From a virus (lineage: Duplodnaviria; Heunggongvirae; Uroviricota; Caudoviricetes), in the IMG/VR virus record IMGVR_UViG_3300030444_000070: 4,457 nt of DNA. The stretch is one strand, 5' to 3'. The notes beneath the pieces were generated by a model. The model ran no database searches. It was not told the DNA's origin and saw only the letters and a list, made by a program, of their open reading frames with translations. Numbering within the stretch: position 1 is the first letter of the stretch; each line of letters begins with the position of its first letter. Shown here in pieces: positions 1-4,457 of this stretch. The translations under genes were made by a program, and so were the position numbers.

Positions 1-117
1 TACAAAACGCAATTGAAGAACGCGAGGCATCGTCTTAACGAGGCACCGAGGCGTCGCATTCTTCAGATGGTTCAACCCTTAAGTTAGCGCTTATGGGAAC
101 ACTCCCCGCCAGGTCTC

Positions 118-273
118 TTACCTTTCAGATTCGTAGGCTGTGAAGACAGTGACCTCCGTCTGGCCGGTTCGGATTCGTACCTCGCAGAGGTCTTTCCTCG
201 TTACCAGTGCCGTCACAATGACGGTTAAACAGATGACGATCAGAGCGATTAACATCGCTTTTTGCTGCTTCAT
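118..273 (-). CDS. hok: Hok/Gef-family type I toxin, 51 aa (MKQQKAMLIALIVICLTVIVTALVTRKDLCEVRIRTGQTEVTVFTAYESER)
   Basis: Own translation of the minus strand: ATG at 273..271, TAA at 120..118. The ORF is below the six-frame track size cutoff. SD-like CAAGGAGAAG lies 6 nt upstream of the ATG, as in R1 hok. The protein has the Hok/Gef hallmarks: single N-terminal TM helix, LVTRKDLCE motif, C-terminal FTAYE. It most resembles Gef/HokC and RelF/HokD from memory; the exact paralog is not assigned. Confidence 0.85.
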   Translation of the reverse strand: MKQQKAMLIALIVICLTVIVTALVTRKDLCEVRIRTGQTEVTVFTAYESER

Positions 274-331
274 AGCCTGCTTCTCCTTGACCTTTTGGTC
301 GGTAAGAGGCTAATCTACGTATGCTAAGCAT
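125..331 (-). CDS. mok: Mok-like overlapping reading frame (modulator of killing), 68 aa, coupling hok translation
   Basis: ORF-track frame 125..331 overlaps hok in a different frame and ends 7 nt before the hok stop, as mok does in hok/sok loci. GAGG lies 9 nt upstream of its ATG. The protein itself is low-complexity, which is typical for Mok. Confidence 0.5.
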   Translation of the reverse strand: MLSIRRLASYRPKGQGEAGYEAAKSDVNRSDRHLFNRHCDGTGNEERPLRGTNPNRPDGGHCLHSLRI

Positions 332-385
332 AGATATGGCCTCAGATTAATGTTAAGCGTCTTGCAGGACGCGTAATGTTATCTG
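321..385 (+). ncRNA. sok: Predicted Sok-like antisense RNA covering the mok translation initiation region
   Basis: Plus-strand promoter candidate TTGACC (287..292), 16-nt spacer, GCTAAT (309..314) inside the mok 5' end puts the start near 321. The transcript would be antisense to the mok SD and start codon. A GC hairpin GCGTC-TTGCAG-GACGC (357..372) followed by a U-rich tract gives a ~64-nt RNA. Boundaries are approximate. Confidence 0.35.
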
Positions 386-440
386 GGGCTTTCTTCTATC
401 TGCTTTTCGGGTCATGCCTGAAGCAGATAGCCTCAAGCAC

Positions 441-480
441 CCGCAACGATTGTATCAATGTCTGGCTTTTTTTCTATAGA
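441..480 (-). promoter_or_regulatory. Predicted hok mRNA promoter (extended -10 TGaTACAAT) and transcript start
   Basis: Minus strand reads CATTGATACAAT (rc of 449..460) with a TG extension. About 7 nt downstream the transcript would begin GGTGCTTGAGGCTATCTGC, which closely resembles the 5' end of R1 hok mRNA (GGCGCTTGAGGCTTTCTGCC, recalled from memory). A 10-bp inverted repeat CTATCTGCTT / AAGCAGATAG (396..405 and 421..430) would form a 5' leader hairpin. Confidence 0.35.
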
Positions 481-700
481 AATCACCTGGAAGGGTGAAT
501 ATCCACATCAGAAGAAATGTTGCAGCAAACATGATCCCTAATGGCCAGACCGCGCCAAAGAAAATCCATACTAAGATCTCCTCTGCTCGTTCTTTGCGGT
601 CGATATCGACAAGCATTTTTCGGCTGATCATGTATACACAGAAGCCAATACAAACATATCCTGCAAAAGCGATCGCTAACTGTAAAAAATCAGATTGCAT
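455..700 (-). CDS. Small membrane protein of unknown function, 81 aa, two predicted TM segments
   Basis: Track ORF 455..781. I prefer the internal ATG at 700..698 because GAGG lies 6 nt upstream; the 781 start has no SD and would overlap the repL stop. Two hydrophobic stretches (FLQLAIAFAGYVCIGFCVYMI and ILVWIFFGAVWPLGIMFAATFLLMWIF) are separated by a charged loop, and the C-terminus is basic. No family recognised. Confidence 0.5.
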   Translation of the reverse strand: MQSDFLQLAIAFAGYVCIGFCVYMISRKMLVDIDRKERAEEILVWIFFGAVWPLGIMFAATFLLMWIFTLPGDFYRKKARH

Positions 701-750
701 CTCCGACCTCAAACTGAAAACGCCAGGTGACTCCAGATTAGAGCAATCTA

Positions 751-1596
751 TCACCCCCTGAATCCTGCCGGTATACCCCATTTTTCGTTATCTTTATTTT
801 TGGCTAAAACCGCATTAAGAGCTTCGTTTACCGTCATGCAATGCGGTAGATTATCGAAGTTTGATATCCCGCCAATATCAGGCGAACGCTTGTTCTTCAG
901 GTAAGCATATTTCCGCGCAGCCGCCTCTACTTTCTGCTTGAACTCATGTTTTTGAGCGCGTTTTTTGGATAACCGCAGATTGTCAGCCTTTGCTTTTGCC
1001 TCAGCGATCCATGAAGTCAATTTTTTGAGTCTGGTCGTTCCGGCACCGCCGGAAACTGATCTTTTTGTTTTTTTAACTTGTGACTTCTTATTCTTTATTG
1101 CCACGTCATCCTGACAGGGGGAGGGGGTATCATTTTGACATGGGGGTGTGGATAAAAAATCAAATAAAGCCAATGTCTTAGCGAGAACAGCTTTAACCTT
1201 GGTTGCGGCTGAAGAGATCTTTAATTTGCTTTCAATCAGCGCGTTTTTAGCGTGTTGTGCGAAGGCCAAAAAGGATGGTGTAAACCGGTACAGGTTAGCG
1301 CGGCGTTCACGGTGATCGCCGATAACAATCTCTACCGACAGGATTCCTTTGTTTACAGCTTCACGGAATGCGCGAACGACGGTTGATTGGCTATAACCAG
1401 TTTCTGCCGCGATCATGCGGTGAGGCTTGTGAATGAAGTATTCACTGGTTGTTGCCGCGAGATTTGCACATTGCGACAGGATATGCCCGGCGCTACGGGA
1501 TAGACCGGAGTGTGTTACAAAGCAGGCCAATTCATAGCCAGAAAAAGTAAAATCGCTCATCGTTATACAGCTCAGGAAAGTGACTTTAGCCAGCAT
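751..1596 (-). CDS. repL: RepL-like lytic replication initiator, 281 aa, winged-HTH (RMIAAETGYSQSTVVRAFREAVNKGIL), lysine-rich C-terminal half
   Basis: Long ORF immediately downstream of kilA with a 29-bp gap. The order (operator, kilA, repL) and the size (281 aa, matching my recollection of P1 RepL) fit the P1 lytic replicon. HTH motif seen directly in the translation. The start could instead be the second Met at 1560; neither has a strong SD. Confidence 0.8.
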   Translation of the reverse strand: MLAKVTFLSCITMSDFTFSGYELACFVTHSGLSRSAGHILSQCANLAATTSEYFIHKPHRMIAAETGYSQSTVVRAFREAVNKGILSVEIVIGDHRERRANLYRFTPSFLAFAQHAKNALIESKLKISSAATKVKAVLAKTLALFDFLSTPPCQNDTPSPCQDDVAIKNKKSQVKKTKRSVSGGAGTTRLKKLTSWIAEAKAKADNLRLSKKRAQKHEFKQKVEAAARKYAYLKNKRSPDIGGISNFDNLPHCMTVNEALNAVLAKNKDNEKWGIPAGFRG

Positions 1597-1625
1597 TACA
1601 ATGCTGGTGGTTCTTACTACGTCTG

Positions 1626-2426
1626 TTAGCGCGTAGCCGCGACAGGTACCAGCACACCAGCATCAAGCAATCGCTTCATTAGCCACTGCTGACCTTTGCC
1701 GGTTATACGAGTCGTGAAAGAAATCCTGCTTCCGTTGCTTGTATCGATCACGGTTTCTTTGAGGGTGAAGTACCCACGGGATATGTATTCTTGTTTGGGG
1801 ACGTTCCTGCGTTCATCGGTTGCGATCAGAATTCCGTTATCACGCAACCAGGTGAAGAGATAGTTTTGGCCCAGGCCGAGCACTTTGGCATAGTTGCCGA
1901 TTAGAACCCCGCTGGCGGTAGCAACGCGTTCGGCGAATTCGACTTTAGGCGCATCCATAAGCATTTTTTGCTCCAGCCGTTGCTTTTGCTCTGCCAGGTC
2001 GGCAGCCAAACGGAGAGCTTCAGGGAGACTCTGCGGAATAGCAGGTTGCAATCTTCCGGCTCGATAGTCGATAAATGTCTGGTTTACCTTCAGCCGAAAC
2101 GCGGGAGAAATCCAGCCTGCGTACTCCACAGCGAGCAATTCATGGGCAAACGTACCGCCGCCACGGCCTTCGAACGAAACTATGCAATTCTGCATAGTTT
2201 CTTTTTCAAGCTCTTCGATGAGCTGTTTGGCTGACAGCGTTCTTAGCCATTGAGCTGGCGCTTTATGGGCACCGAGTCCGCTCGCTCTGTGTAGAGCATT
2301 AAGGTTGTAACGGCCAGCGCGGTCGGTCGTAATTTCAACACCACAAATAACAGGCAGAGTGGTTGAAGGATCGACATTTTGATGAAGGTTTGATATATTC
2401 ATATCCGCATTGAATGTTTGTTGCAT
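1626..2426 (-). CDS. kilA: KilA protein, 266 aa: N-terminal KilA-N DNA-binding domain plus C-terminal KilAC/ANT domain
   Basis: Track ORF with GGAG 7-8 nt upstream of the ATG. The N-terminus (VICGVEITTDRAGRYNLNALHRASG...APAQWLRT) looks like KilA-N. The C-terminal ~130 aa are clearly homologous to the C-terminus of the neighbouring ant product. The size agrees with my recollection of P1 KilA (266 aa). Confidence 0.85.
   Translation of the reverse strand: MQQTFNADMNISNLHQNVDPSTTLPVICGVEITTDRAGRYNLNALHRASGLGAHKAPAQWLRTLSAKQLIEELEKETMQNCIVSFEGRGGGTFAHELLAVEYAGWISPAFRLKVNQTFIDYRAGRLQPAIPQSLPEALRLAADLAEQKQRLEQKMLMDAPKVEFAERVATASGVLIGNYAKVLGLGQNYLFTWLRDNGILIATDERRNVPKQEYISRGYFTLKETVIDTSNGSRISFTTRITGKGQQWLMKRLLDAGVLVPVAATR
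2371..2399 (+). promoter_or_regulatory. Plus-strand antisense promoter (P53as-like): TCGACA, 17 nt, TGaTATATT
   Basis: -35 TCGACA at 2371..2376, 17-nt spacer, -10 TATATT at 2394..2399 with a TG extension at 2391..2392. It sits inside the first codons of kilA and points away from the gene toward the operator region. Confidence 0.45.
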
Positions 2427-2495
2427 TTTTTCTCCAAATTTGCATCAACCTTCAATCACCAGCTCGAAATGGTGATTCTTTGCACTTAGAAAACG

Positions 2496-2512
2496 AAATT
2501 TATTAGAGCAAA
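2496..2512 (-). promoter_or_regulatory. C1-type repressor operator (Op53-like) upstream of kilA
   Basis: Minus-strand 17-mer TTTGCTCTAATAAATTT matches the asymmetric P1 C1 operator consensus ATTGCTCTAATAAATTT (recalled) at 16/17. It lies 70-86 bp upstream of the kilA ATG. A second copy is at 4166..4182. Confidence 0.55.
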
Positions 2513-2554
2513 TTTTTCTGACTCGATCCAGATCGGGTTGGTCGATCTGCTCAG

Positions 2555-2592
2555 AAACCTGCCAGTTTGCTGGCAGGTTTTTTCTTTTGTTA
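2555..2592 (+). terminator. Rho-independent terminator: stem CCTGCCAG / CTGGCAGG, loop TTTG, then TTTTTTCTTTTGT
   Basis: Perfect 8-bp stem (extendable by AAA/TTT pairs) with the T-tract on the plus strand. On the minus strand it is preceded by an A-tract and followed by GTTTCTGAG, so it may also act weakly after ant. The T-tract overlaps the ant stop codon. Confidence 0.6.
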
Positions 2593-3384
2593 ACCTATTG
2601 CTACTGGTTTTAACAAACCAGCATCAAGTAGCTTGCGAGTTAACCACTGCTGGCCTTTACCCGTTAATTGGGGCGTCAGCCGTATCTGGTAGCCATTTTC
2701 ATCATCCAGCACCACTTCTTTCACCGTGAAATACCCGGCGTTAATGTACTGCTGGCGCGGTACGTTTTTGCGCGCACCAAAAGCCATGAGAATGCCGTTC
2801 TGGCGCAACCATGAGAAAAGGGCGTTTTGCTTAAGTCCAACGACCTTTGCAAAGTTCCCGATCAGGATTCCATTAGCCGCTGATACCCGGTCGGCAAAAT
2901 CGACTTTAGGGGCTGCGGCCACCAGCTGTTGTTCCAACTGCATTTTCTGTTCTGCCAACTCGGCAGCCAGGCGTAGAGCGTCTGGTAATGTTTGGGGGAT
3001 CGATGGGGCAGGGGAGTTTGCCTGCTGCAATTCTTCCAGTTTGTCGATCAGCGAACGGCGGACTGCTTTTGACTCGCGCGCGGCGACTCGCAGGGCTTGT
3101 TTGTAGGTCATGGTTATGACAACCATAGGCGTACCGCCACCTGGCGGCACGGTTGCACTTTTTGTGTAACCGTCCTCACCTTCTAATTCGTCGAGTATTT
3201 TTTTGATGAATTTGTTGTTCCGAACCTCTGGTTCCCCACATAACTTACGCGCTTCATTGACCATCTTTAACAGCGTCTGGCTGTCGATTGTGTCTCCAGT
3301 GTTGGAGATAACATTCACAGCTGGTGATGGCGTAGCTGAAGCAACAGATGCTGGTTTTTTAACATTCAAATTATTACTGGTCAT
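2590..3384 (-). CDS. ant2: Antirepressor Ant2, 264 aa: in-frame internal initiation product of the same ORF
   Basis: In-frame ATG at 3384..3382 is preceded by a strong SD, AAGGAGG, with an 8-nt spacer. P1 ant is known to produce Ant1 and Ant2 from two in-frame starts (recalled). Whether both are used here is an inference. Confidence 0.45.
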   Translation of the reverse strand: MTSNNLNVKKPASVASATPSPAVNVISNTGDTIDSQTLLKMVNEARKLCGEPEVRNNKFIKKILDELEGEDGYTKSATVPPGGGTPMVVITMTYKQALRVAARESKAVRRSLIDKLEELQQANSPAPSIPQTLPDALRLAAELAEQKMQLEQQLVAAAPKVDFADRVSAANGILIGNFAKVVGLKQNALFSWLRQNGILMAFGARKNVPRQQYINAGYFTVKEVVLDDENGYQIRLTPQLTGKGQQWLTRKLLDAGLLKPVAIG

Positions 3385-3633
3385 TCTATGTGCCTCCTTT
3401 CTCATTTCTGCTGCCACCGTTGCGTAACGTAGACGTCCTTGTTCAATCAAATAATCCCTGATCTCGGCTATCAGTAGCCTGTTGATCACAGCCTTATCTG
3501 TTCGGGTATAAAAACGTCTGGTTATCATGAAATAGTTGGCAATTGCGCCGGGGATCTCCCGTGTCGGCATACAGGCAGTATGCAGGGCGATCGCTTCGGC
3601 TATGTCATTACGGGTGACGAGAGGTTTTTTCAT
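2590..3633 (-). CDS. ant1: Antirepressor Ant1, 347 aa, with C-terminal KilAC/ANT domain
   Basis: Track ORF. The ATG at 3633 overlaps the stop of the upstream icd-like ORF as ATGA, and AGGGGG lies 4 nt upstream. The C-terminal ~130 aa (LPDALRLAAELAEQK...GKGQQWL) are paralogous to the KilA C-terminus. The middle region loosely resembles Rha-like regulators. Confidence 0.8.
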   Translation of the reverse strand: MKKPLVTRNDIAEAIALHTACMPTREIPGAIANYFMITRRFYTRTDKAVINRLLIAEIRDYLIEQGRLRYATVAAEMRKEAHRMTSNNLNVKKPASVASATPSPAVNVISNTGDTIDSQTLLKMVNEARKLCGEPEVRNNKFIKKILDELEGEDGYTKSATVPPGGGTPMVVITMTYKQALRVAARESKAVRRSLIDKLEELQQANSPAPSIPQTLPDALRLAAELAEQKMQLEQQLVAAAPKVDFADRVSAANGILIGNFAKVVGLKQNALFSWLRQNGILMAFGARKNVPRQQYINAGYFTVKEVVLDDENGYQIRLTPQLTGKGQQWLTRKLLDAGLLKPVAIG

Positions 3634-3851
3634 AAAACCCCCTGAACGTCGGCAGAGAAGGGGAGGTTCCAGTAACTAAGTGAATTGCGCGAGTTAGTTG
3701 AAAAACGGGCAGTAAAAATGCAGGGGCCATCAGGCAATTGAGAGCGTGCTTCGTCTTCTGTTGCTGCGATGACGAAGTGATAGTGGTGTTTTTTGCAGGA
3801 ATAGAAACGCCAGATGAATTCTTGGCGTGCGCAAGGATTGGCATTAACCAT
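3630..3851 (-). CDS. icd: Icd-like small protein, 73 aa, translationally coupled to ant
   Basis: Track ORF (MVNANPCARQEFIWRFYSCKKHHYHF...). GAGG lies 8 nt upstream of the ATG. Its TGA overlaps the ant ATG (ATGA). Size (73 aa) and position between the c4-like region and ant match P1 icd. The protein sequence itself is not independently recognised. Confidence 0.55.
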   Translation of the reverse strand: MVNANPCARQEFIWRFYSCKKHHYHFVIAATEDEARSQLPDGPCIFTARFSTNSRNSLSYWNLPFSADVQGVL

Positions 3852-3907
3852 AGTTACGGCCTCACAATCAGGTTTAACAACCTGCTACCCGCTGCTAAAC
3901 AGGTGGC

Positions 3908-3990
3908 AGGACGTGACGGGGTTAGCAGACTGGCGATTGTGAAACCAGCAGGCCGAAGCCTCCCCATCACGCCCCACCATAATTTGGGCG
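3908..3990 (-). ncRNA. c4: Predicted c4-like antisense repressor RNA
   Basis: On the minus strand, UCACAAUC (rc of 3935..3942) and CUGCUAAC (rc of 3922..3929) lie 6 nt apart. Each is complementary to two target pairs on the same transcript: upstream GUUUAGCAG (rc 4061..4069) and GAUUGUG (rc 4047..4053), and downstream GUUUAGCAG (rc 3892..3900) and GAUUGUGA (rc 3862..3869), the last overlapping the icd SD GUGAGG. Local hairpins place the first motif in a loop. The RNA ends are not determinable from sequence; boundaries are approximate. Confidence 0.35.
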
Positions 3991-4098
3991 TAACGCGGTT
4001 TTACGGACACAAAAATACCGCAATATCGGATATCTGCGGCTGTCCGCACAATCATTCAGGCTGCTAAACCCGGTCGCAGAATTTGCTACGACGGCGAA

Positions 4099-4127
4099 AC
4101 TATAAGCCTGAACGATTAAAAGGTCAA
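4099..4127 (-). promoter_or_regulatory. Sigma70 promoter for the c4-icd-ant operon (P51-like): TTGACC, 17 nt, TATAGT
   Basis: Minus strand: -35 TTGACC (rc of 4122..4127), exact 17-nt spacer, -10 TATAGT (rc of 4099..4104). Predicted start near 4092, upstream of both upstream target motifs. Confidence 0.5.
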
Positions 4128-4165
4128 TATGATGCAAAAAGATAGCATTCGCGACTTAAAAATAC

Positions 4166-4182
4166 AAATTTATTAGAGCAGA
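4166..4182 (-). promoter_or_regulatory. C1-type repressor operator (Op51-like) upstream of the immunity-I operon promoter
   Basis: Minus-strand 17-mer TCTGCTCTAATAAATTT matches the recalled P1 C1 operator consensus at 15/17. It is nearly identical to the 2496..2512 copy, and the flanks are also conserved (~27/33 over 2483..2515 versus 4153..4185). Confidence 0.5.
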
Positions 4183-4457
4183 TTAGTGTCGTGCAATAGA
4201 TATATTATTTGTGATGAAAAATAATGCAGAGGGATATTGTAACTTTAAGATGGATATCAATAGTCGATACATAAATTAAGTTAGCAATAAACTATTAACT
4301 TAAGAAATAATGCAGATGGTGAACTTGTCTCTGACTTTTCAGCTATACACAATAAGTTAGGGATAGCTTATAAAGGTAATGACTCCAACTTATTGATAGT
4401 GTTTTATGTTCAGATAATGCCCGATGACCTTGTCATGCAGCTCCACCGATTTTGAGA

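What the first reader, a model, noticed from the sequence alone, without database searches (positions are those of the whole stretch)
2483..2515. Two copies of a C1-operator-like element with conserved flanks
Beyond the 17-bp operator core, ~30 bp are conserved between 2483..2515 and 4153..4185, including ACTTA at a fixed distance on the plus strand. On the minus strand both copies read (T/C)TGCTC, 17 nt, TAAGT(G/C), which could be a weak repressor-occluded promoter. This is the only repeated regulatory motif shared by the two operons.
Basis: partly seen in the sequence, partly recalled or inferred. Interest (0 to 1): 0.45.

Follow-up and report, generated by a model that had tools for sequence, protein, structure and literature searches.

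The report
Known phage P1 repressor operators Op53, Op51
The two repeated elements are the already-characterised binding sites (Op53 and Op51) where the phage P1/P7 master repressor C1 shuts off the lytic-replication genes and the antirepressor operon, so the finding is real but ordinary.

Summary
The repeat is real. Windows 2484-2514 and 4154-4184 share 26 of 31 nt. Each holds, on the minus strand, a 17-nt match to the phage P1 C1-operator consensus ATTGCTCTAATAAATTT (1 and 2 mismatches; 0.03 matches expected by chance).

The window is the immI operon (c4 RNA, icd, ant1/2) plus the lytic replicon (kilA, repL) of a P1/P7-like phage-plasmid. Copy 1 is Op53 (OrepL) and copy 2 is Op51 (Oc4). Both sequences are letter-identical to the curated operators Op(rep) and Op(c4) of phage P7. 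A plasmid differing from the window by 3 SNPs encodes a C1 repressor 99% identical to P1's.

P53 has its -10 (TCTAAT) inside Op53. P51a has its -35 across the 3' end of Op51. The proposed hexamers match only 6/12 and 5/12 and lack the key T at -7.

The shared 3' flank (T-run plus TAAGT) is not special to this pair. It recurs in register at 8 of 19 P1 operators, and at three others P1's annotation does place a -10 there. What that flank does is unresolved, and it is the only mildly new point.

Verdict: already known, low interest.

The parts
2496..2512 (-). C1 operator Op53 (OrepL / Op(rep)), TTTGCTCTAATAAATTT
   Evidence: 1 mismatch to the consensus. Orthologous to P1 OrepL at L001 2560-2576. 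Identical to the P7 Op(rep) annotation. Invariant in 37 haplotypes from 76 IMG/VR loci.
2502..2507 (-). -10 hexamer TCTAAT of promoter P53 (PkilA), inside the operator
   Evidence: P1 annotation AF234172 and X15638; the hexamer is identical in the window.
2525..2530 (-). -35 hexamer TGGATC of P53, overlapping a Dam GATC site
   Evidence: P1 annotation; identical in the window.
2483..2495 (-). 3' flank of Op53 (cgttttcTAAGTg).
   Evidence: The register is shared with 7 other P1 operators.
4166..4182 (-). C1 operator Op51 (Oc4 / Op(c4)), TCTGCTCTAATAAATTT
   Evidence: 2 mismatches to the consensus. Orthologous to P1 Oc4 at L001 4230-4246. Identical to the P7 Op(c4) annotation.
4162..4168 (-). 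-35 (TTTGTAT) of the C1-sensitive promoter P51a (P2c4), overlapping the 3' end of Op51
   Evidence: P1 annotation; identical in the window.
4139..4144 (-). -10 (TATCTT) of P51a
4153..4165 (-). 3' flank of Op51 (gtattttTAAGTc).
4099..4127 (-). Promoter P51b (P1c4), TTGACC-17-TATAGT, downstream of the operator
   Evidence: Recovered by the consensus scan and annotated in P1; identical in the window.
3899..3984 (-). c4 antisense RNA gene
   Evidence: Rfam RF01695, 69.6 bits, E=1.2e-12; P1 misc_RNA c4 maps to window 3903-3979.
4053..4105 (-). a1/b1 target sites of C4 RNA
   Evidence: Rfam RF03163, 54.6 bits.
3630..3851 (-). icd (73 aa, intact)
   Evidence: the product differs from P1 Icd at 3 of 73 residues.
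2590..3633 (-). ant1 (347 aa), with ant2 in the same frame; antirepressor with a KilAC domain
1626..2426 (-). kilA (266 aa; KilA-N plus KilAC domains), first gene of the Op53-controlled operon
751..1596 (-). repL (281 aa), lytic replication initiator; contains oriL
2371..2399 (+). PaskilA (P53as) promoter, TCGACA...TATATT, for the antisense RNA that runs across Op53
   Evidence: P1 annotation; hexamers identical in the window.
2553..2582 (+). Terminator hairpin (13 bp) plus T-run that ends the antisense RNA; it sits between ant1 and Op53
   Evidence: The RNA fold of 2407-2592 is -58.6 kcal/mol, z=-5.2.

Best explanation
The two copies are the C1 repressor operators Op53 (2496-2512, minus strand) and Op51 (4166-4182, minus strand) of a P1/P7-type phage-plasmid. 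In the lysogen, monomeric C1 binds each asymmetric 17-bp site, and the corepressor Lxc helps it bind. At Op53 the operator contains the -10 hexamer (TCTAAT) of promoter P53, so bound C1 excludes RNA polymerase and keeps kilA-repL, and therefore lytic replication from oriL, silent. At Op51 the operator overlaps the -35 of promoter P51a, so C1 shuts off the C1-sensitive transcription of c4-icd-ant1/2. The downstream promoter P51b still supplies C4 antisense RNA, which blocks icd/ant translation. When C1 is inactivated by Coi or Ant, both operons are derepressed together. Shown here: sequence identity and orthology to the curated operators and promoter hexamers, and the presence of C1 in a plasmid differing from the window by 3 SNPs. 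Inferred from the P1 literature rather than tested here: C1 binding and promoter occlusion in this particular element. The shared 3' flank (T-run plus TAAGT) is a recurrent extension of the P1 operator module. At these two sites it sits in different positions relative to the real promoters: the transcribed leader at P53, and the -35/spacer at P51a.
For: Consensus matches with 1 and 2 mismatches against 0.03 expected. The window is 96-98% identical to P1 and P7 across c4-icd-ant-kilA-repL. P1's annotation places OrepL/Op53, PkilA/P53, Oc4/Op51, P2c4/P51a and P1c4/P51b at the orthologous positions, and every hexamer is identical in the window. P7's annotation lists the exact window sequences as Op(rep) and Op(c4). 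Rfam finds the C4 RNA and its a1b1 targets. Pfam finds KilA-N and KilAC domains. Plasmid pHN257-3 differs from window 1-4374 by 3 SNPs, encodes C1 with 282/284 positions identical to P1 C1.100, and carries 17 operator-like sites. Literature: the 17-bp asymmetric consensus and Lxc enhancement of C1 binding (PMC8546580); Op53 overlaps P53 and represses kilA/repL (PMC9948254); C1 represses the c4-icd-ant operon and C4 RNA is also required (PMC8198154).
Against: No binding or transcription data exist for this particular element. The window itself does not contain c1, and its exact parent (with the IS1 end at 4375) was not found in the collections. Copy 2 has C at operator position 2, which no P1 operator shows, although it is the P7 form and is curated there as an operator.
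Confidence: 0.95

Rival explanations
1. One reading: each operator carries its own weak sigma-70 promoter, with the operator's TTGCTC/CTGCTC as -35 and TAAGTG/TAAGTC 17 nt downstream as -10. C1 would then occlude the -35 of a promoter additional to, or instead of, P53 and P51a.
For: The same geometry is annotated in P1 for P1ban (TTGCTC-17-TAATAT, listed as a sigma-70 promoter), PpmgR and P2pmgT (both TTGCTC-17-TAAAAC, predicted). T8-A9 of the flank, which would be the first two bases of that -10, recurs in register at 8 of 19 P1 operators and at a diverged P1-like element, L093 (TAAAAC, TAGGCT). Seven of those eight operators point toward a downstream operon.
Against: The hexamers match consensus at only 6/12 (copy 1) and 5/12 (copy 2). 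The -10s lack the near-invariant T at position 6, and the scan did not call them. The curated P1 records place P53 and P51a on other hexamers, and none is annotated at TAAGT. In P1 itself Op51 begins AATGCTC, which makes the -35 weaker still. Among the recurrent flanks the sixth base is C, G or A, and T only at Pban.
Confidence: 0.1
2. The 3' flank (nnn-TTTT-TAAGT) is a functional extension of the operator. Either it is contacted by C1 or the C1-Lxc complex, or the T-tract gives a DNA shape that raises affinity. It is therefore conserved relative to the operator and not relative to any promoter. This adds to the best explanation rather than replacing it.
For: The flank keeps a fixed register relative to the operator (8 operators at shift 0, 0-4 at other shifts). 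Its position relative to the annotated promoters varies: leader at P53, -35/spacer at P51a, Pdmt and P4cre, and -10 at PpmgR. Roughly 75 chance matches to the core in unrelated viral contigs lack it, so it is not a by-product of core composition. In L093 (about 70% nt identity to P1) the Op68 orthologue keeps tgtttttta 9/9.
Against: 11 of 19 P1 operators lack it, including the perfect-consensus Op72a and the strong Op99d. A plasmid carrying the 17-bp consensus operator lowered the probability of lysogeny in vivo, which the authors attribute to reduced C1 activity (PMC8546580). The statistic was defined after seeing the data. Population data show the flank is no more conserved than the rest of the kilA leader. 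The primary footprinting papers could not be read.
Confidence: 0.25
3. The flank similarity only reflects common descent: a roughly 30-bp operator cassette was duplicated, or each flank is a decayed second inverted half-site like those in the bivalent Op72ab/Op99ab. It has no present function.
For: Bivalent operators put ATTAG(T/A)G(T/C)AAT in exactly this flank. Several monovalent flanks begin ATTA/ATTT and keep T8-A9-A10 (Op83 matches 8/13). KilA and Ant1 are paralogous in their KilAC domains (49% identity), so some ancient duplication in this region is plausible.
Against: Op51 and Op53 flanks match the bivalent partner at only 5/13 (counted by eye). Op51 resembles Op86a (10/13) more than Op53 (8/13), and those loci are not otherwise related. 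Operator-to-gene distances differ greatly: about 70 nt to kilA against about 530 nt to ant1.
Confidence: 0.2
4. The repeat is a chance coincidence of AT-rich intergenic DNA.
For: Both sites are AT-rich. Outside the core only 8/13 flank positions agree.
Against: 0 of 200 shuffles gave two consensus matches. Both sites are orthologous to curated operators in P1 and P7.
Confidence: 0.01

Closest known systems
Phage P1 operator Op53 (OrepL) with promoter P53 (PkilA), controlling kilA-repL
   Same: The 17-nt operator sequence is identical (TTTGCTCTAATAAATTT), as are the -10 TCTAAT inside the operator, the -35 TGGATC with its Dam site, and the downstream flank. Position upstream of kilA is the same.
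   Different: One substitution 11 nt upstream of the operator (G to A, in the P53 spacer), as in P7. The gene content downstream of repL differs: hok/sok instead of rlfA/rlfB.
Phage P7 operator Op(c4), equivalent to P1 Op51 (Oc4), with promoters P51a/P51b, controlling c4-icd-ant1/2
   Same: Identical to the P7 operator TCTGCTCTAATAAATTT. The P51a and P51b hexamers, the C4 RNA and the a1b1 sites are all present.
   Different: Compared with P1, operator positions 1-2 are TC instead of AA, and everything upstream of the operator is unrelated (P7-type rather than the P1 sim region). P1 homology stops at window 4180, inside the operator.
P1 Pban/Op72a-type operator-promoter module (TTGCTC as -35, -10 placed 17 nt downstream)
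   Same: Same spacing between TTGCTC and a TA-starting hexamer.
   Different: Pban's -10 is TAATAT, supplied by the overlapping second operator. Here it is TAAGTG/TAAGTC with no T at position 6, and no promoter is annotated there.

Membership tests
P1/P7 C1-controlled operators (17-bp asymmetric sites) | Match to the 17-bp asymmetric consensus ATTGCTCTAATAAATTT | tested here: met
   1 and 2 mismatches, with 0.03 matches expected by chance. The consensus is quoted in PMC8546580.
P1/P7 C1-controlled operators (17-bp asymmetric sites) | Orthologous position to an experimentally defined or curated operator | tested here: met
   P1 OrepL/Op53 and Oc4/Op51 lie at a constant offset of +64. P7 Op(rep) and Op(c4) have identical sequences.
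P1/P7 C1-controlled operators (17-bp asymmetric sites) | Overlap with a sigma-70 promoter of an early or immunity operon, oriented the same way as that operon | tested here: met
   The P53 -10 lies inside Op53 and the P51a -35 overlaps Op51. All hexamers are conserved and both operators point toward their operons.
P1/P7 C1-controlled operators (17-bp asymmetric sites) | The cognate C1 repressor gene is present in the same element | tested here: inconclusive
   c1 is not in the 4.4-kb window, and the exact parent (with the IS1 junction) was not found. pHN257-3, which differs from window 1-4374 by 3 SNPs, encodes C1 with 282/284 positions identical to P1 C1.100.
P1/P7 C1-controlled operators (17-bp asymmetric sites) | Specific binding of C1 protein (EMSA or footprint) and C1-dependent repression | not testable with these tools
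   Established for P1 Op53 and Op51 in the literature as cited in PMC9948254 and PMC8198154. Not measured for this element.
   TTGCTC (4/6) with TAAGTG (2/6), and CTGCTC (3/6) with TAAGTC (2/6). Neither has T at position 6 and neither was called by the scan.
   No TSS data were available. The P1 and P7 records annotate no promoter at this position.

The most novel reading that the evidence does not exclude
About 40% of P1 C1 operators, including both copies here, would be roughly 30-bp extended operators. Their 3' extension (nnn-TTTT-TA(A/T)G(T/C), in fixed register) would be functional, for example as a contact or DNA-shape element for C1 or the C1-Lxc ternary complex that tunes repression strength between operator classes.
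Probability: 0.25. Interest if true: 0.3.

Novelty: already known. Interest (0 to 1): 0.1.

Why it matters
It matters little beyond correct annotation. These are textbook control points of the P1/P7 tripartite immunity system: Op53 gates lytic replication, and Op51 gates the antirepressor operon. Recognising them confirms that this phage-plasmid lineage, which is common in E. coli from livestock and humans, keeps an intact C1-controlled switch. The only open point is the recurrent 3' extension of many C1 operators. If it is functional, it would refine how a single monomeric repressor grades repression across about 20 dispersed operators.

Tried and rejected
1. Phylogenetic footprinting of the flank did not work. 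A KilA-based locus search in IMG/VR returned 80 loci, all 99-100% identical at protein level. Across 76 of them the operator is invariant, but the whole 110-nt leader is equally conserved, so there is no power to show flank-specific constraint. The genome-contig search gave only three close copies plus distant KilA homologues without P1 context.

2. Phage D6 was tried as a diverged test case. It has no P1-type operators: 3 sites with up to 4 mismatches against 2-4 in shuffles. It was rejected as uninformative.

3. An exact-core scan of IMG/VR gave 120 loci, of which 75 are unrelated chance matches. These served only as a negative control for the flank.

4. The exact parent carrying the IS1 junction was not found among complete E. 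coli genomes or plasmids.

5. Lobocka 2004 (PMC523184), Heinrich 1994 and Citron 1992 are not held in the paper library. I therefore could not check whether the extended flank or additional P53/P51 starts were described.

6. I considered that Op51 and Op53 are a pair-specific duplication. This was rejected because Op51's flank is closer to Op86a, Op88 and Op68 than to Op53.

Full report
**Observation.** The window was read in full. The longest direct repeat in it is 2484-2514 against 4154-4184, 31 nt at 84% identity. A search for the phage P1 C1-operator consensus ATTGCTCTAATAAATTT with up to 3 mismatches finds exactly two sites, both on the minus strand. They are 2496-2512 (TTTGCTCTAATAAATTT) and 4166-4182 (TCTGCTCTAATAAATTT). 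Shuffled sequence expects 0.03 matches, and none of 200 shuffles gave two. ACTTA sits 7 nt from the operator edge in both copies.

**Context.** The window is 96-98% identical to phages P1 and P7 over 737-4180 and 737-4374. It is 99.9% identical over 1-4374 to many E. coli P1-like phage-plasmids. All genes lie on the minus strand:
- c4 antisense RNA (Rfam RF01695, 3899-3984) and its a1/b1 targets (RF03163).
- icd (3630-3851) and ant1/ant2 (2590-3633, KilAC domain).
- kilA (1626-2426, KilA-N plus KilAC) and repL (751-1596).

This is the immI operon followed by the lytic replicon.

**Identity of the two copies.** In the curated P1 record, copy 1 aligns at a constant offset of +64 with 'monovalent C1-controlled operator OrepL; former Op53; controls expression of kilA and repL'. 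Copy 2 aligns with 'Oc4; former Op51; controls expression of c4'. The P7 record annotates exactly the window's two 17-mers as Op(rep) and Op(c4). The window is too short to contain c1. However, plasmid pHN257-3 differs from window 1-4374 by three SNPs and encodes 'phage repressor protein C1'. That protein matches P1 C1.100 at 282 of 284 positions, and the plasmid carries 17 operator-like sites orthologous to P1's set.

**Mechanism.** P1's annotation and the original X15638 record place promoter P53 (PkilA) with -35 TGGATC and -10 TCTAAT. The -10 is operator positions 6-11. Promoter P51a (P2c4) has -35 TTTGTAT spanning the last three operator bases and -10 TATCTT. P51b (P1c4, TTGACC-17-TATAGT) lies further downstream and is the only promoter in this region that the simple consensus scan recovered. 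Every one of these hexamers is identical in the window. Bound C1 therefore occludes the -10 of P53 and the -35 of P51a. This silences kilA-repL (lytic replication) and the C1-sensitive transcription of c4-icd-ant, while P51b still supplies C4 RNA. The literature I could read agrees:
- The operator consensus is 17 bp and asymmetric, and Lxc increases C1 binding (PMC8546580).
- Op53 overlaps P53 and represses kilA/repL (PMC9948254).
- C1 represses the c4-icd-ant operon, and C4 RNA is also needed (PMC8198154).

C1 binding in this particular element is inferred, not shown.

The proposed -35/-10 pairs match consensus at 6/12 and 5/12. Both lack the T at the last -10 position, the scan did not call them, and neither coincides with an annotated P1 or P7 promoter. 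At these two sites the promoter reading is therefore not supported. The same geometry does exist elsewhere in P1. The annotation uses the operator's TTGCTC as -35, with a -10 exactly 17 nt later, at P1ban (TAATAT), PpmgR (TAAAAC, predicted) and P2pmgT (TAAAAC, predicted).

**The conserved flank.** I aligned all 20 annotated P1 operators in operator orientation. The 3' extension seen here, a T-run followed by TA at flank positions 8-9, recurs in the same register at 8 of the 19 seventeen-bp operators: Op21, 51, 53, 68, 83, 86a, 88 and 99e. Shifted registers give 0-4. The pattern's background frequency is 0.4% genome-wide and 1.4% in AT-rich DNA. The statistic was chosen after seeing the data. 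A more independent version uses TAAGT from the window copies and asks for at most 1 mismatch at flank positions 8-12. By eye count, 4 of the other 17 operators pass.

Further points on the flank:
- About 75 unrelated viral contigs with chance exact matches to the operator core lack the flank.
- A diverged P1-like contig, L093 (about 70% nt identity, syntenic), keeps it at its Op68 orthologue (tgtttttta 9/9) and has TAAAAC at its ban-region operator.
- Op51's flank is closer to Op86a (10/13), Op88 and Op68 (9/13) than to Op53 (8/13). The similarity is a family trait, not a property of this pair.
- Relative to the annotated promoters the flank falls in different places: the transcribed leader at P53, the -35/spacer at P51a, Pdmt and P4cre, and the -10 at PpmgR and P2pmgT.

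Its function is therefore unresolved. The candidates are a weak -10, an extended C1/Lxc contact or DNA-shape element, or a relic of a second half-site. Population data could not discriminate between them. The operator is invariant across 37 haplotypes, but so is nearly the whole kilA leader. That leader is also covered by the P53as antisense RNA: the PaskilA hexamers are conserved, and 2407-2592 folds with z=-5.2 and ends in a 13-bp terminator hairpin.

**Other observations:**
- P1 homology ends inside operators at both edges. At the left edge only the first 11 nt of Op55/Orlf survive (ATTGCTCTAAT, window 737-747). Beyond that a hok/sok module and a small membrane ORF replace rlfA/rlfB.
- At the right edge, P1 identity stops at 4180 inside Op51, and the sequence beyond is P7-type.
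- Window 4375-4457 is an IS1 end (81/83 to P1's IS1). It is absent from all of the listed near-identical plasmids.

**Verdict.** The finding is a correct recognition of two long-known operators. Its added promoter hypothesis does not fit the mapped promoters. The only mildly new element is the recurrent operator extension. Novelty: already known. Interest: low.

Noticed in passing
window 737-747 (minus strand ATTGCTCTAAT); compare L001 795-811: A truncated third C1 operator. Only the first 11 nt of P1's Op55/Orlf survive, and homology with P1 breaks exactly inside the operator. Downstream, rlfA/rlfB are replaced by other DNA.
   Followed up: partly
window 4180-4182 (5' end of Op51): P1 homology also ends inside this operator. 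Positions 1-2 are TC here and in P7, AA in P1 and CC in other IMG/VR P1-like contigs, and the upstream DNA is unrelated between P1 and P7 types. Operators seem to coincide with mosaic junctions.
   Followed up: partly
window 4375-4457: An IS1 terminal sequence (81/83 identical to the IS1 copy in P1). It matches thousands of places in E. coli genomes but is absent at this position in all of the listed near-identical plasmids (top 12-15 hits shown), so the window's parent has a private IS1 insertion about 190 bp upstream of Op51.
   Followed up: partly
window 118-442: A hok/sok type I toxin-antitoxin module: Hok 51 aa (Pfam HOK_GEF) and sok RNA (Rfam RF01794, 113.9 bits). A small membrane ORF (455-700) follows, downstream of repL where P1 has rlfA/rlfB.
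   Followed up: partly
P1 AF234172 operators (L001, L004, L005); window 2483-2495 and 4153-4165: A recurrent 3' extension of C1 operators (nnn-TTTT-TA(A/T)G...) in fixed register at 8 of 19 P1 operators, also seen in a contig about 70% identical to P1. Its function is unknown.
   Followed up: partly
window 1639-1705 vs 2600-2666: Direct repeats D2/D3 reflect paralogy. KilA and Ant1 share a C-terminal KilAC domain at 49% amino-acid identity over about 200 residues.
   Followed up: yes
window 2371-2592 (+): The antisense RNA unit (P53as/PaskilA) opposite the kilA 5' end is conserved. It runs across Op53 and ends at a strong hairpin plus T-run at 2553-2582. The predicted fold has z=-5.2.
   Followed up: partly
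window 4219-4233 and 4305-4319: An unexplained 15-nt direct repeat, AAATAATGCAGAGGG / AAATAATGCAGATGG, spaced 86 nt apart in the AT-rich P7-type intergenic region upstream of Op51.
   Followed up: no
window 3791; NZ_CP139806.1 13989-14210: icd is intact in the window (73 aa). In the near-identical plasmid pHN257-3 it carries a nonsense codon (K21*), one of only 3 SNPs between the two sequences.
   Followed up: yes
L093 13804-13847 (IMGVR_UViG_2565956772_000019): In a diverged P1-like element the ban-region control has two operators in direct orientation 27 nt apart, with a TATAAT between them. P1 has the overlapping inverted bivalent Op72ab here.
   Followed up: no
L135/L136 (phage D6, MF356679): D6 encodes a C1-like repressor but has no P1-type operator matches above chance, so its repressor presumably recognises a different site.
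   Followed up: partly
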